Counted from the stretch's first letter, positions 48,542 through 64,000 are shown. The stretch: 64,000 nucleotides of DNA from an uncultured Candidatus Rokubacteria bacterium (GCA_963699775.1 CAVOVE010000015.1:687588-751587); one strand, 5' to 3'. Notes: generated by a model from the sequence alone, not told the origin. Numbers and translations are program-made.

Positions 48542-49553
48542 TCATAACAACCGGCCGGCAAGGGTCACCCCGGGACCGCGCGGGCCGTAGAGGCGACGTG
48601 CCAACTCGGCGAGCCAGCGGCCCCGCGCGTCGTCGCGAAGCTCGAGCCGCCCCGCCCGCGCACCGGCGAGCAGCAGCGAAATCTCCTCGCCCGGGGTTCC
48701 GAGACGCCGCAGCGTCTCAAAGAGCGCGGCGTGCTCGGGGCTCGCGCCCGTGCTCTCGGTCCACTCCCGGGCGGCCGCGGCAAACTCCGGGTCAGGCGGA
48801 AGGGGGACCTCCTCGGACGCCGCGGGGCCGAGGCCGTTGATCGCGTCGATCACCCGCTCCTTGCGCTCCTTGTACGGGCAGTGCCGCAAGTTCCGCCGGC
48901 AGGATCGCCGCGCCGATGGTGATCCGCTGGCCGCCCATGCCGACCGGGTACTCGAGTTTGGCCGTCAGCGGCTCGACCGGCAGCCCGCCCGCGAAGCGGA
49001 CCGGGACCACGGGCGCGCCCGTGGCGATGGCCATGTCGAGAAAGGCCCCGCTCATCTTCTGCACCGGGGCGCGGCAGGTGAGCGCCCGCGTCCCCTCCAC
49101 GTGGATCATCACGGACTTGCCGCCGCCGGCGATCTCGCGCGCCAGCACGCCGATGATCCGCGGCAGCTCCTCGCGGTTGCTGCGGTCGAAGTAGGTGATC
49201 ACCCCCGGGTCGTGCGCCCCCGGCCAGGCGAAGGCGTGGCGGATCAGGTTCCCGAGCCAGGTCGTGCGGTGCTCGATCTTGGCCAGGGTCACGGTGAGGA
49301 TCCCCGAGAGCGCCGAGGCGATCAGCGAGAAGAGGATCGACTCGATGCCGACCTGATGGTTCGCGAGGTAGAGGACGCCCTTCCCGCGCAGCGCGGCGAA
49401 GCCCGCGGGGTCCTCGAGGCGCACGCGCCGCACGAAGCGCCCGGCCAGACCGTAGTAGATGTCCTCGACGGGCCAGCGCCCGATCCGGTAGTAGTCGTCC
49501 CACCAGTCGCGAACCGGCGAGAGATCGAGAGTCGGCGGCCCGGCATCGCTCAC
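48542..49553 (-). CDS. 1-acyl-sn-glycerol-3-phosphate acyltransferase-like (AGPAT/PlsC family); probable C-terminal domain or partner of Pfa3
   Basis: LYLANHQVGIESIL (HxxxxD/E block), VMIHVEGTRA, FLDMAIATGAPVVPVRFAG; C-terminal 100 aa in another frame (ORF 48542..48889). Confidence 0.75.
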
Positions 49554-49559
49554 CGAGAC

Positions 49560-50433
49560 CGCCGCCGCGCGTGCGCTCGACGGTGAGCGGCCAAACCGTG
49601 AGCGGCTCGGACGGGCAGCGTGCGAGCACCAGGCTGGGGCAACCGCCAGGGGAATCCGGGCTCACGGCGGCCGAGCCCGTGTCCGCCACGACGCTCGACG
49701 GGTGCACCGCGGCTCGTGCCGCAACGTGCTCCTTCACGGCGATCTGGCCGAGCAGGTCGCCCTCGGCCGCGTAGGCCTGAGCGAGCGTGCCGGGGAGCCA
49801 GTCGCTGGCGCGGACGTCGGCGTCCGCGAGGTGCGTCGTCCCGCTCCTGTCGCTGGAGAGTCGCAGCCCGGGCACAAAGCGACGGTCGCGCAGGAAGGCG
49901 CGCCGATCGCGCGGCGGCGCGGACCCGAGCGCTCCCTTGGGGAACAGCACCTCCACCAGGTCGAGGCTCGCGATCACCCGGCCGCTGGCGATCGCCTGGA
50001 TCTGAAATCGCGGGAACCGGGGGTCGCCGTCGAAACCGGCGAAGCGCGTCTCGCAGCGCACCTCGCCTGCAGCCGGGAGCGGCGCGAACAGCCGCAGCGA
50101 CACGATGCGGTGCGGGTAGGCGACCTGGTCGGCGGGGATCTCCGGGCTCCAGTCGCAGAGTCGGTCGTGGGGAATGCCGTGGGTCAGCGCGTCGAGCAGC
50201 GCCTCGTGGAGCAGACCGCGCGGCTCGCCGCCCCCGGCGGCGTCGAGGAGCGAGGAGGAGGCGCCGGGGACGAGCTTGAGGGAGCGCAGCAGTTGGAAGG
50301 ACGGTCCGTGAAAGAGGGTCCCGGACTCGTAGGGATCCGGCGACGGGGTGGCGTTGGACGGCGGATCCCAAGGAACATCGAGCGCGCATTGTTCCCGTTC
50401 GGGCTGCGGGGTCCTGTCGCTGCGGACCTCCAT
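49560..50433 (-). CDS. PKS-type dehydratase C-terminal half (LFHGPSFQ motif) initiated from the repeat-borne ATG; probably continuous with the AGPAT domain
   Basis: MEVRSDRTPQP-EREQCALDVPWDPPSNATPSPDPYESGTLFHGPSFQLLRSLKLVPGASSSLLDAAGG...; no HxxxGxxxxP half downstream of the repeat. Confidence 0.5.
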
Positions 50434-62400: not shown

Positions 62401-62622
62401 GGCGCCGCGGCGCGCGTAGGTCTTGTCCGGCGCGGCCGGGTCCGGGTCGTAGTAGTCCTCGATCAGCCAGTGGCTCGGCGGGACGTCGCGGATCAGGTCG
62501 CGGCCCGCGAGGATGTCGCGCCAGAACCCGTTCTCGTCGCTGGAGCCGGGGAAGAGCGCGCTGACGCCCACGACCGCGATCGGGACCTGTCGGCGGACGC
62601 TGTTTCGCGTCTCATCGTGCAT
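56401..62622 (-). CDS. Pfa2/PfaA-like multidomain PUFA-synthase subunit: KS-AT-ACP-ACP-KR-DH(PKS type); multiple frame changes
   Basis: KS N-terminus [25 protein letters not shown] and [11 protein letters not shown]; [18 protein letters not shown]; two ACPs [21 protein letters not shown] and [21 protein letters not shown] (approx. 59290-58690); KR ([15 protein letters not shown]); [32 protein letters not shown]. Confidence 0.8.
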
Positions 62623-64000
62623 TCAGGCCAGGGGCCGCGGCGCGACGTCGAATGCGCCGAGGGGAACGGGGACGCCGCAGGTGCGCAGCTGCTGGGCGCG
62701 CGTCACCGCGATGGCGCCCTCGAGCAGGTTGCGCCCGATCTGGGCCACGGTGCGCCGCGTCGGGTCCTCGAGGAAGGAGCCGCGCACCCAGTCGTTGAAC
62801 GCGCCCATCGCCGGCCCGCACCAGATCTGGTAGTCGGCCCGGCGCGCCGGGTCGTCGGCGATGGCCCAGCGGCTGGACTGGCCGAGGTACCAGCGGAAAC
62901 AGAGCGCCATGCGGTGTTTCGGGTCGCGGCCCGCGCGCTCGTTCTGACGCGGGTCGCGCGCCGCCCAGAAGCGCTCGGTCTGCTCGAGGACCGCCTCGAG
63001 CGGCAGCAGAAAGATCTCCTTCTCGAGACGCTCGCGCTCGCCCGCGGGAATCTCCTCGAGGGAGGCGTGGGACTTGTAGAGGTCGCGCAGGCGCCGGGCG
63101 CGGGCCGCGAAGAGCGTGCCCCGCCGCAGGACCTGCACCTGGGCCCCGAGTTCGAACATGTCGGCGGCCGGCGCCATCGCGACATCGGCCACCCCCGCCT
63201 GCGCGAGCAGCGCCCGCCCCGAGGCCCCGAGGCCGGACTCCACGGCGGCCTGATTCACCGATCCCGTGAGCACGTAGGCCGCGCCCGAGCGCGAACGCCG
63301 CGGCGACCGCGGAGGGGGTGCCGAGCCCGCCGGCGGCGCCGAGGCGCACCTGGCGGCCGTGGCCGTGCTGGGCGGCGAGGTCGGCGGCCACGCGGGCGAT
63401 GCTCGGGAAGATCGCCGACAGGGGCCGGTTGTCCGTGTGCCCGCCGGAATCGGCTTCGACCGTTATGTCCTCGGCCAGCGGCACGCGCCGGGCGAGGTCG
63501 GCCTCCTCCCGCGTGAGTCTCCCGGCCGCGACCAGCGCGTCGAGCATCTCCTGCGGGGCCGGGGCGAGGAAGAACCGCGCCGTCTCGGGACGCGAGATCT
63601 TGGCGAAGAGGTGGTGCCGCCGCCGCACGCCGTCCGCCGGCGTCGGCGGTGAGTCCCGAAGCGGCGTACCGCACCACCGGGAGCGTGAGCCTCATGAACG
63701 CCGAGGCCGAGACCCGCCGCACGCCTCGCCGCAGGTAGACCTCGACGGTGGCATCCTCGAGCGCCGACTCCTGCGGGGAGTGGATGAGGTTCGACCCCCA
63801 CGAGATATCGGGGCCCAGCTCGCGGGAGAGCTGCGCGACCGCGTCCTCGATGCGCGCGGGATCGAGCCCGGCCGCGCCGAAGAACCCGAGAAAGCCGGCG
63901 CGCGCCGCCTCGACGACCATGCGGGTCGTCGTGAGGCCGTTGGCCATCTCCCCGACCACGTACGGGAAGCGCACGCCGTGCGTCTCGCAGAAGGACCGAT
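62623..64000 (-). CDS. Pfa1/PfaD-like enoyl reductase (nitronate-monooxygenase-type trans-ER); N-terminus beyond window end
   Basis: FPYVVGEMANGLTTTRMVVEAARAGFLGFFGAAGL, ITVEADSGGHTDNRPLSAIFPSIARV; frame changes between ORFs 63255..63974, 62612..63628, 62623..63273. Confidence 0.8.

What the first reader, a model, noticed from the sequence alone, without database searches (positions are those of the whole stretch)
48542..64000. Myxobacterial-type PUFA-synthase-like cluster (pfa1 ER, pfa2 KS-AT-ACP2-KR-DH, pfa3 ...-AGPAT) with a reduced domain set
Gene order on the minus strand is ER (PfaD-like), then a PfaA-like megasynthase, then KS/CLF/FabA-like DH folds, ending in a lysophosphatidic-acid acyltransferase domain. 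The terminal AGPAT is the hallmark of Sorangium/Aetherobacter pfa3 (established knowledge). Differences from described clusters: only two tandem ACPs (known PUFA synthases carry 4-9); no AT domain recognisable between CLF and the DH region of pfa3; three clear FabA-like hot-dog folds plus one truncated PKS-type DH C-half fused ahead of AGPAT. The product might therefore not be a canonical LC-PUFA; a shorter or different polyene lipid, or direct acylation of lysophospholipid, is possible.
Basis: partly seen in the sequence, partly recalled or inferred. Interest (0 to 1): 0.65.

Follow-up and report, generated by a model that had tools for sequence, protein, structure and literature searches.

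The report
Ordinary Type-L PUFA-synthase-like gene cluster
This is a real but ordinary polyunsaturated-fatty-acid-synthase-type gene cluster whose "reduced" domain set is the commonest layout in its family; its only unusual features are sequencing-error frameshifts and three copies of a small genomic repeat sitting in frame inside one gene.

Summary
The cluster is real. Three tightly coupled minus-strand genes run pfa1 (PfaD-type ER, cut by the window end), then pfa2 (KS-AT-ACP-ACP-KR-DH), then pfa3 (KS-CLF-DH'-DH-DH'-DH-DH4-AGPAT), followed by prfC. Frameshift-corrected ER and Pfa2 pass NCBI's curated PfaD and PfaA cut-offs.

The "reduced domain set" is not unusual. I surveyed 32 species-representative loci with a complete pfa2 and an AGPAT-ending pfa3.
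- ACP counts were 1 (11 loci), 2 (9), 3 (6), 4 (3) and 5 (3).
- The pfa3 AT was absent in 17 of 32.
- Six loci have exactly this architecture, including two mycobacterial species.

An AT-less Pfa3 is already published for Sorangium cellulosum So ce56, and the PKS-type DH4 for Minicystis rosea. The "truncated DH C-half" is a complete DH4 split by a 93-nt repeat insertion.

- No gene is an intact ORF: about 30 frame changes occur, at the same density as elsewhere in the window, and prfC is broken too. These are assembly indel errors.
- Three copies of a dispersed REP/MITE-like repeat lie in pfa3 linkers. A cleanly assembled relative translates them in frame.

The product is unknown. By analogy it is probably a short or less unsaturated PUFA esterified directly to lysophosphatidic acid. 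Verdict: a new member of a known kind, of low interest.

The parts
62623..64000 (-). pfa1: PfaD-family enoyl reductase. About 84 N-terminal codons lie beyond the window end, and the gene carries two frameshifts (near 63630 and 63287).
   Evidence: TIGR02814 scores 591.7 bits against a cut-off of 449. Pfam gives NMO + FabD_helical_ins. Both frameshifts are single-base insertions relative to L001. The stop TGA is at 62625-62623.
56401..62622 (-). pfa2: PfaA-like KS-AT-ACP-ACP-KR-DH, about 2065 aa once the frames are corrected.
   Evidence: TIGR02813 scores 1323 bits against a cut-off of 1010. Pfam domains are and coordinates. Active-site motifs read directly from the translation: DAACAS, GHSFG, DYAAAN.
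61181..62583 (-). KS1 domain of pfa2.
   Evidence: Pfam ketoacyl-synt and Ketoacyl-synt_C, mapped to the window.
60017..60886 (-). AT1 (malonyl/acyl transferase) domain of pfa2.
   Evidence: Pfam Acyl_transf_1, E=3.4e-32. The GHSFG motif is present.
59110..59340 (-). ACP1.
   Evidence: PP-binding, an ACP-HMM hit and direct repeat D1. The LGIDS motif is present.
58761..58977 (-). ACP2.
   Evidence: Second PP-binding stretch, an ACP-HMM hit and direct repeat D1 at 78% identity.
57264..58663 (-). KR domain of pfa2.
   Evidence: Pfam KR, E=7.9e-29, mapped.
56443..57183 (-). DH1: the PKS-type dehydratase of pfa2.
   Evidence: Pfam PS-DH and PKS_DH_N. The [10 protein letters not shown] motif is present.
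48542..56404 (-). pfa3: PfaC-like KS-CLF-DH'-DH-DH'-DH-DH4-AGPAT, about 2609 aa once the frames are corrected. It includes three in-frame repeat insertions.
   Evidence: Pfam. It aligns at 48-53% identity to full-length Pfa3 homologs. The ortholog in L004 is an intact 2620-aa ORF. The GTG start overlaps the pfa2 stop, and the stop is at 48544-48542.
55103..56404 (-). KS2 domain of pfa3.
   Evidence: Pfam ketoacyl-synt and Ketoacyl-synt_C. The LDAACASS motif is present.
54884..55096 (+). Repeat copy C. This is the long (about 210 nt) variant, inverted relative to the gene, and lies in the KS-CLF linker.
   Evidence: Inverted-repeat pairs I1-I4, an exact 25-mer match and alignment A4. A translated long version in P0135 matches it.
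53862..54833 (-). CLF (chain length factor) domain. The active-site Cys is replaced (GFTMSAEELSG).
   Evidence: Second ketoacyl-synt stretch, a CLF-HMM hit and alignment A5.
53294..53385 (-). Repeat copy B, in the linker between CLF and the first hot-dog fold.
   Evidence: A copy is present at the same site in L002 and L003, and a half copy in L004.
50929..53281 (-). Four hot-dog folds: DH' (52737-53281), FabA-like DH2 (52105-52647), DH' (51480-52029) and FabA-like DH3 (50929-51363).
   Evidence: Pfam FabA scores 298 bits over three stretches. The motifs FFEGHFTNDPCMPGT and FFKAHFFQDPVQPGSLG are present.
50544..50870 (-). DH4 N-terminal hot-dog half (LQDHRPTWTVPALP).
   Evidence: DH4-HMM hit. 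It is colinear with DH1 by BLASTP at E=3e-6. Conserved columns appear in alignment A5.
50395..50493 (-). Repeat copy A, between the two halves of DH4.
   Evidence: In L002 the site holds only a 16-nt remnant. It is translated in frame in L004 and in P0135.
49918..50340 (-). DH4 C-terminal hot-dog half (LFHGPSFQ ... DALTHGIPHD).
48842..49529 (-). AGPAT (PlsC-like 1-acylglycerol-3-phosphate O-acyltransferase) domain.
   Evidence: Pfam PF01553, E=1.4e-7. The motifs NHQVGIES, EGTR and PVVPV are present. There are 594 homologous clusters, many at the C-terminus of 2000-3000-aa proteins.

Best explanation
The region holds a chromosomal three-gene operon, pfa1-pfa2-pfa3, for an iterative PUFA-synthase-type 'secondary lipid' synthase. 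It belongs to the Type L (myxobacterial-type) class.

How it works, inferred from the established mechanism of this class:
- AT1 loads malonyl units onto the two ACPs.
- KS1 and the KS2-CLF pair extend the chain.
- KR reduces it.
- The PKS-type DH1 and DH4 and the two FabA-like DH'-DH pairs dehydrate and isomerise it, leaving cis double bonds.
- The trans-acting PfaD enoyl reductase saturates selected cycles.
- The fused C-terminal AGPAT transfers the finished acyl chain from ACP to 1-acyl-glycerol-3-phosphate. Release is therefore direct incorporation into phosphatidic acid.

Shown here: the domain content, order and motifs; family membership; and conservation of this exact architecture in relatives. 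Inferred only: the mechanism and the product. The lack of AT2 resembles S. cellulosum, which is reported to make only linoleic acid, so a shorter or less unsaturated PUFA is the most likely product.

The many frameshifts are assembly indel errors, not gene decay. The three REP/MITE-like repeat copies in pfa3 linkers are most likely translated in frame as tolerated linker insertions.
For: - Family membership: TIGR02814 scores 591.7 (cut-off 449) and TIGR02813 scores 1323 (cut-off 1010) on the window's corrected proteins.
- Domain content comes from Pfam.
- The stop/start overlaps indicate translational coupling.
- The cleanly assembled ortholog L004 has intact ORFs of 541, about 2081 and 2620 aa with the same domains.
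- Two further syntenic relatives, L002 and L003, have the same order, two ACPs and prfC downstream.
- In the survey of 32 loci, the two-ACP, AT2-less, DH4+AGPAT layout recurs in 6 loci, including Mycobacterium paraense and Mycolicibacter arupensis.
- Frameshifts as errors: all four testable cases are single-base insertions relative to L001, and similar unpaired single-base indels relative to L001 occur in an unrelated cyclase gene. prfC is split into at least three pieces. The frame-change density is 1.67/kb outside the cluster and 2.06/kb inside it.
- Repeats translated: the intact L004 ORF reads through them, as does the ORF of P0135.
- Literature for mechanism and subtypes: PMC6731297, PMC8436480, PMC4882568, PMC3098273.
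Against: - No intact ORF exists in the window itself, so function in this genome is inferred from relatives.
- No PPTase (pfaE) was found. The nine neighbouring ORFs scanned gave none; the rest of the window was read only by eye.
- The product is unknown. No member with this exact subtype (two ACPs, no AT2, DH4 present) is described as characterised in the papers I read.
- The frame across each repeat in the window cannot be fixed because of the indel noise. Copy A carries a TGA in the upstream frame.
- The AGPAT motif I reads NHQVGIE rather than the textbook HX4D.
Confidence: 0.85

Rival explanations
1. The cluster is a genuine pseudogene array. The frameshifts are real mutations and the synthase is dead in this organism.
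For: About 30 frame changes occur over 15.4 kb and no ORF exceeds about 1000 aa. The public assembly's own gene calls are fragments: P0001 at 852 aa and P0122 at 236 aa.
Against: - The frame-change density is similar in the rest of the window.
- The housekeeping gene prfC is also broken.
- An unrelated cyclase gene shows unpaired single-base indels relative to L001.
- The corrected proteins keep all catalytic motifs and score above curated cut-offs.
- Two related contigs, L002 and L003, also have fragmented gene calls, consistent with noisy assemblies, while the short-read relative L004 is intact.
Confidence: 0.06
2. The repeats split pfa3 into separate genes (KS | CLF | DH block | DH4C-AGPAT). 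They would act as intergenic stop/start cassettes, so the synthase would be a dissociated variant.
For: Copy A contains a TGA in the upstream frame followed 15 nt later by an ATG (MEVRSDRTPQP...), and copy B carries the same ATG. The frame differs on the two sides of each copy in the window. Most copies of the family elsewhere are intergenic.
Against: - In the cleanly assembled L004, one 2620-aa ORF reads through a full copy at site A and half copies at sites B and C.
- The 752-aa ORF of P0135 reads through a long copy at site A.
- Site A lies inside a single DH domain.
- No plausible start codon precedes the CLF after copy C.
- The indel noise explains the frame changes.
Confidence: 0.05
3. 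The architecture reflects a truly novel synthase with a reduced domain set, making a new class of polyene lipid.
For: No characterised enzyme has exactly two ACPs, no AT2 and a DH4. Domain swaps of DH2, DH3 and DH4 change the product spectrum in the myxobacterial enzymes (PMC6731297).
Against: The same architecture occurs in 6 of 32 surveyed species loci across several phyla. Each individual feature is common or already published. Nothing in the catalytic motifs departs from the family.
Confidence: 0.1
4. It is an ordinary modular or trans-AT PKS rather than a Pfa-type synthase.
For: Generic PKS models also match the KS-AT part (NF045894, Pks13), but far below their cut-offs.
Against: The PfaA and PfaD models score above their curated cut-offs. 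The cluster has a CLF, tandem ACPs, FabA-like DH pairs and a PfaD ER. 596 of the 600 pattern-matched stretches in the genome scan encode relatives, and the 80 loci kept share the pfa layout.
Confidence: 0.01

Closest known systems
Sorangium cellulosum So ce56 pfa cluster (pfa1-pfa2-pfa3; Type L of Shulse & Allen 2011)
   Same: The ER gene comes first. Pfa2 is KS-AT-ACPn-KR-DH. Pfa3 is KS-CLF followed by hot-dog DHs and a C-terminal AGPAT, and it has no AT domain (PMC8436480, PMC4882568, PMC3098273).
   Different: The So ce56 sequence was not compared directly, because it was not among the 80 loci kept. The only Sorangium locus in the set, So ce1099 (L060), has three ACPs and does carry AT2; its best aligned segment is 54% identical in Pfa3. 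The host of the window is not shown to be a myxobacterium. The three in-frame repeat insertions were seen only in the window's own clade.
Minicystis rosea AA/DTA-type PUFA synthase
   Same: It has a PKS-like DH4 between the FabA-like DHs and the AGPAT, and the same gene order (PMC6731297).
   Different: M. rosea Pfa3 carries AT2 (PMC8436480) and makes C20-C22 PUFAs. The window lacks AT2.
Aetherobacter fasciculatus DPA/DHA-type PUFA synthase
   Same: It has the pfa1-pfa2-pfa3 order and a terminal AGPAT.
   Different: It has AT2 and lacks DH4 (PMC6731297).
Uncharacterised AGPAT-type pfa loci in Mycobacterium paraense (L005), Mycolicibacter arupensis (L039), a Planctomycetota MAG (L006), Myxococcales and Proteobacteria MAGs (L014, L021) and MAG binchicken_co232_174 (L004)
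   Same: The domain string is identical: ER / KS-AT-ACP2-KR-DH / KS-CLF-...-DH4-AGPAT, without AT2.
   Different: Pfa3 identity is only 44-69%. The repeat insertions are absent from all of them except L004. Whether any product is known for these loci was not checked.
Rickettsia palindromic elements (RPE) and other small repeats inserted in frame in protein genes (from my own knowledge, not checked in the paper library)
   Same: A short dispersed repeat with a hairpin is found both between genes and in frame inside a coding sequence, at positions between folded domains.
   Different: The sequence family and the host are unrelated. Here only about 3 of 74 testable copies lie in coding-like open frames. 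No terminal repeats, target duplications or transposase were established.

Membership tests
Pfa-type (PUFA / secondary lipid) synthase | A PfaD-family trans enoyl reductase. | tested here: met
   TIGR02814 scores 591.7 bits against a cut-off of 449.25 on the window's corrected ER. The L004 ortholog scores 592.
Pfa-type (PUFA / secondary lipid) synthase | A PfaA-like subunit with KS-AT-tandem ACP-KR-DH. | tested here: met
   TIGR02813 scores 1323 bits against a cut-off of 1010.1. Pfam finds KS, AT, two PP-binding stretches, KR and PS-DH.
Pfa-type (PUFA / secondary lipid) synthase | A PfaC-like subunit with KS-CLF and two FabA-like DH domains, each paired with a pseudo-DH. | tested here: met
   Two ketoacyl-synt stretches and FabA at 298 bits over three stretches. 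The CLF lacks the active-site Cys (alignment A5). The four hot-dog folds are mapped.
Pfa-type (PUFA / secondary lipid) synthase | Multiple tandem ACPs. | tested here: met
   Two ACPs. The literature range is 'two to over 10' (PMC4882568).
Pfa-type (PUFA / secondary lipid) synthase | An associated Sfp-type PPTase (PfaE). | tested here: inconclusive
   None was found among the neighbouring ORFs scanned. Myxobacterial clusters keep pfaE at a separate locus (PMC8436480). The rest of the genome is not available.
Pfa-type (PUFA / secondary lipid) synthase | Production of a polyunsaturated fatty acyl product. | not testable with these tools
   This needs expression and FAME GC-MS or lipidomics.
Type L / myxobacterial-type pfa cluster | The pfaD homolog lies at the 5' end, followed by pfa2 and then pfa3. 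| tested here: met
   Gene order and coupled junctions. The definition is in PMC3098273.
Type L / myxobacterial-type pfa cluster | An AGPAT (PlsC-like) domain fused to the C-terminus of Pfa3. | tested here: met
   PF01553, E=1.4e-7, at residues 2331-2461 of 2609. The EGTR and PVVPV motifs are present. Homologs place the domain at the C-terminus of 2000-3000-aa proteins.
Type L, Aetherobacter/Minicystis subtype | An AT2 domain between the CLF and the DH region of Pfa3. | tested here: not met
   No Acyl_transf_1 in Pfa3. The AT HMM gives no hit downstream of the CLF in any frame. The gap is only about 580 nt. The same holds in the clean L004. The window therefore matches the So ce56-like AT-less subtype.
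Type L, DH4-containing subtype (M. rosea-like) | A PKS-type DH4 immediately upstream of the AGPAT. | tested here: met
   Both halves are present and colinear with DH1 at E=3e-6. DH4 is present in 31 of 32 surveyed AGPAT loci.
Type L / myxobacterial-type pfa cluster | The host is a myxobacterium. | tested here: inconclusive
   The nearest named RF3 homologs, at 73-77% identity, come from many phyla. The closest loci are unnamed MAGs. The cluster type occurs in Actinobacteria, Planctomycetota, Acidobacteriota and others.
REP/MITE-like dispersed repeat (side finding) | Many dispersed copies of a short conserved unit with a hairpin. | tested here: met
   There are four copies in the window. The central stem has two covarying pairs across 60 copies.
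REP/MITE-like dispersed repeat (side finding) | Terminal inverted repeats, target-site duplication or an associated transposase. | not tested
   Only a weak GGGCnnnGGGGT terminal symmetry was noted by eye. No RAYT or transposase search was made.

The most novel reading that the evidence does not exclude
The three in-frame copies of a normally intergenic REP/MITE-like repeat in the Pfa3 linkers may not be mere tolerated junk. They lie at KS|CLF, CLF|DH and inside DH4. Between genomes whose coding DNA is about 80% identical, the site-A copy that was profiled is kept at 78-85% nucleotide identity, while the linker immediately around it is only 37-52% identical. One reading is that they are maintained for a function, for example an mRNA hairpin that paces translation at domain boundaries, or homology patches that promote domain shuffling between megasynthase genes. 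Either way this would be an RPE-like case of selfish DNA inside a protein gene, outside Rickettsia.
Probability: 0.12. Interest if true: 0.6.

Novelty: new member of a known kind. Interest (0 to 1): 0.25.

Why it matters
As a biosynthetic cluster it adds little. It is one more member of a widespread, largely uncharacterised family, and its layout is that family's most common one. The survey is still useful. It shows that low ACP counts and the absence of AT2 are the rule in AGPAT-type pfa clusters across many phyla, including mycobacteria. Rules drawn from marine EPA/DHA synthases (4-9 ACPs) should therefore not be used to flag terrestrial clusters as aberrant. The window also shows in practice that long-read indel noise can make an intact megasynthase look fragmented. 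The one unexpected item is the set of in-frame repeat insertions at domain boundaries of Pfa3. If they prove functional or recombinogenic, they would bear on how megasynthase linkers evolve.

Tried and rejected
I therefore wrote a codon-usage dynamic-programming decoder that allows frame changes. Its shift positions matched the indels seen against L001 to within a few bases.
- The exact look-up of the source contig through P0001 found no record. Cluster-member names gave no organism.
- Taxonomic placement through RF3 was uninformative, with many phyla at 73-77% identity.
- Rfam found no family for the repeat or anything else in 48-56.5 kb at E<=1. The whole window gave only three tRNAs.
- Single-sequence folding of the repeat copies inside pfa3 was no better than shuffled sequence, with z from -1.3 to +0.9. 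Only the intergenic copy D reached z of about -2.5.
- PDB sequence search with DH4 gave no hit.
- Pfam on nine neighbouring ORFs found a GT2 and an OsmC domain and no PPTase or ole genes.
- The idea that the repeat is better conserved than all flanking DNA was tested and softened. It is as conserved as the catalytic-domain coding sequence and much better than the adjacent linker.
- The split-gene reading of pfa3 and the real-pseudogene reading were considered and rejected, as set out under the rival explanations.
- I did not obtain the characterised So ce56, Aetherobacter or Minicystis protein sequences, so no phylogeny against them was made.

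
Full report
**What is in the sequence.** The region is 70-76% G+C and its coding signal lies on the minus strand. There are no long intact ORFs. The third-position G+C phase jumps every few hundred bases, and stop-to-stop segments tile the region in alternating frames. Reading the three minus-strand frames by eye shows a PfaD-like protein, then a KS-AT-ACP-ACP-KR-DH protein, then KS, CLF, hot-dog folds and an acyltransferase, each pieced together from several frames.

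I built a codon-usage decoder that permits frame changes. It gave corrected translations of 457 aa for the ER (N-terminus outside the window), 2065 aa for Pfa2 and 2609 aa for Pfa3.

**Are the frameshifts real?** Probably not.
- A related MAG contig (L001, GCA_964631715.1, 89% nucleotide identity) has an intact 538-aa pfaD.
- Against L001, the window carries uncompensated single-base insertions at 63630, 63287, 62176 and 62121. These are exactly where the decoder placed frame changes.
- Similar unpaired single-base indels relative to L001 occur in an unrelated CHASE2-cyclase gene at 9.8-12 kb.
- The housekeeping gene prfC, just downstream of the cluster, is split. One ORF covers profile positions 4-221 and the next covers only 250-351 of 529.
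- Inferred frame changes number 1.67 per kb outside the cluster and 2.06 per kb inside it. Both figures include some gene junctions.
- The public gene calls for this genome are the same fragments (P0001, P0122, P0284) on a 1.46-Mb contig.
- Two further syntenic relatives from ENA assemblies (L002, L003) also have fragmented gene calls, consistent with noisy assemblies. A short-read MAG contig (L004) has intact ORFs of 541, about 2081 and 2620 aa.

I conclude that these are assembly indel errors, not gene decay.

**Domain content.**
- Pfam on the corrected proteins gives NMO + FabD_helical_ins for the ER.
- Pfa2 has KS, AT, two PP-binding stretches, KR and PS-DH.
- Pfa3 has two ketoacyl-synt stretches (KS and CLF), FabA at 298 bits over three stretches, and PF01553. 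It has no Acyl_transf_1.
- NCBIfam places the ER in TIGR02814 (591.7 bits, cut-off 449) and Pfa2 in TIGR02813 (1323 bits, cut-off 1010). The rival 'ordinary PKS' reading is therefore excluded.
- The gene junctions are tight. TGA-ATG sits at 62625-62620, and a GTGA overlap sits at 56404-56401. pfa3 ends at 48544-48542.
- Catalytic motifs read directly from the translation are all present: DAACAS in both KS domains, Cys lost in the CLF, GHSFG in the AT, LGIDS in both ACPs, YAAAN in the KR, His motifs in DH1, DH2, DH3 and DH4, and NHQ..E, EGTR and PVVPV in the AGPAT.

- *Two ACPs: correct.* A 189-nt direct repeat lies at 58782-58970 / 59131-59319. An ACP HMM run on all three frames gives two hits. 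There is no room for a third. L002, L003 and the clean L004 also have two.
- *No AT in Pfa3: correct.* An AT HMM finds only AT1 in any frame. CLF and the first hot-dog fold are about 580 nt apart. L004's intact Pfa3 lacks AT as well.
- *Three FabA folds: a Pfam scoring effect.* This is simply how Pfam scores the canonical four-fold DH'-DH-DH'-DH block. L004 and the unrelated AT-less P0142 also give three stretches. I mapped the four folds at 52737-53281, 52105-52647, 51480-52029 and 50929-51363.
- *The 'truncated PKS-type DH C-half': wrong.* The N half, with LQDHRPTWTVPALP, is at 50544-50870 and the C half at 49918-50340. With the intervening repeat removed, the two halves align colinearly with the Pfa2 DH at E=3e-6. 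This is the DH4 described for Minicystis rosea (PMC6731297).

**Is the domain set unusual?** No.
- The literature already records an AT-less Pfa3 in S. cellulosum So ce56, linked there to production of linoleic acid only (PMC8436480, PMC4882568).
- It also gives an ACP range of 'two to over 10'.
- It defines a Type L class with pfaD first, found in Sorangium, Plesiocystis, Streptomyces, Nakamurella and Saccharophagus (PMC3098273).
- The AGPAT domain alone has 594 homologous clusters at 50% identity. Many lie at the C-terminus of 2000-3000-aa proteins.

I fetched 80 species-representative loci and mapped domains with HMMs built in-session. Among the 32 loci with a complete pfa2 and an AGPAT-ending pfa3:
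- ACP counts were 1 (11 loci), 2 (9), 3 (6), 4 (3) and 5 (3).
- AT2 was absent in 17.
- DH4 was present in 31.
- Six loci have exactly the window's architecture: L004, Mycobacterium paraense, Mycolicibacter arupensis, a Planctomycetota MAG and two other MAGs.

The set is biased towards relatives of the query, and the ACP HMM could undercount. Even so, the conclusion that this layout is ordinary is robust.

**The repeat insertions, a side finding.** A unit of about 93 nt occurs three times inside pfa3. Its ends read GGGGTGGCGCGGAGGGGAGGTCTCC ... GGAGGTCCGCAGCGACAGGACCCCGCAGCC.
- The copies lie at 50395-50493, at 53294-53385, and inverted with about 130 extra bases at 54884-55096. A fourth, intergenic copy lies at 17202-17288.
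- The three sites are the KS-CLF linker, the linker before the first hot-dog fold, and the loop between the two halves of DH4.
- L003 has copies at all three sites. L002 has one copy, a 16-nt remnant at the DH4 site and nothing clear at the third site.
- L004's intact ORF reads through a full copy (SEGVARRGGLHRRTEGSTTEVRSDRTPQRAREQ) and two half copies. The 752-aa ORF of P0135 reads through a long copy. The repeats are therefore translated as linker insertions.
- None of the other 79 loci has the repeat.
Of 74 testable copies, only 3 lie in open frames with coding-like flanks. The family is therefore mainly intergenic.
- Sixty copies share a central stem with two covarying pairs.
- Rfam has no match.
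- Between the window and L004, the copy at the DH4 site is 78-85% identical. That is about the same as the catalytic-domain coding sequence, while the adjacent linker is only 37-52% identical. Concerted evolution with other genomic copies, or selection, could explain this. I cannot tell which.

**Surroundings.**
- prfC lies immediately downstream in the window, L002 and L003.
- Further along are GT2 and OsmC-domain ORFs.
- The rest of the window, read by eye from the decoded proteins, holds chemotaxis genes, polyphosphate kinase genes, tig-clpP-clpX and an efflux system. This is ordinary chromosomal context.
- No PPTase or ole genes were seen.
- The host lineage is unresolved.

**Mechanism and verdict.** By the established logic of Type L PUFA synthases (PMC6731297), this is an iterative synthase. 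Its product is built on two ACPs and released by the fused AGPAT onto 1-acyl-glycerol-3-phosphate. The AT-less subtype suggests a shorter or less unsaturated product, as reported for Sorangium, but this is inference only. The finding is a correct identification of a known kind of cluster, and its claimed peculiarities turn out to be the family norm. It is a new member of a known kind and of low interest. The in-frame repeats are the only item worth a further look.

Noticed in passing
window 50395-50493(-), 53294-53385(-), 54884-55096(+), 17202-17288(-); L004 15855-15951, 12968-13003, 11308-11342; L003 10408-10496, 12054-12144, 14932-15023: A dispersed REP/MITE-like repeat of about 93 nt, with a long variant of about 210-230 nt, sits at three linker positions inside pfa3. 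A cleanly assembled relative translates it in frame. Elsewhere the family is mostly intergenic, with at least 120 metagenome stretches matching its 21-nt core. It has a central hairpin with two covarying pairs and no Rfam match.
   Followed up: partly
whole window; e.g. prfC 46764-48451(-), cyclase gene 9840-11980(-): Frame changes occur at about 1.7-2 per kb throughout the window. Where they could be tested against a relative (in pfaD and pfa2), they are single-base insertions. The housekeeping gene prfC is split into at least three pieces. This looks like unpolished long-read assembly error, so any ORF-based reading of this window should allow for it.
   Followed up: yes
window 50380-50560 versus L004 15780-15960: The repeat copy inside DH4 is 78-85% identical between two genomes, while the linker sequence immediately around it is only 37-52% identical. 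It is unexplained whether this reflects gene conversion from other copies or selection.
   Followed up: partly
L003 16968-17122; window 54946-55094: The extra internal segment of about 150 nt in the long repeat variant also occurs in L003, between the end of pfa3 and prfC. The long and short forms therefore circulate separately in these genomes.
   Followed up: no
window 30791-31080(-): Three tandem tRNA genes lie next to tig-clpP-clpX-like genes. The latter were recognised by eye from the decoded proteins.
   Followed up: no
window 15681-27225: This stretch concentrates polyphosphate-related genes: two PPK2-like repeats and a PPK1 followed by CHAD, CYTH, NUDIX and SixA-like segments. They flank a TolC/HlyD/MFS efflux set. 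All were recognised by eye only and not scanned against Pfam.
   Followed up: no
L005, L033, L039, L052, L068 (Mycobacterium / Mycolicibacter loci): AGPAT-ending Type L pfa clusters with one or two ACPs and no AT2 are present in several mycobacterial species representatives. Whether a product is known for these was not checked.
   Followed up: no
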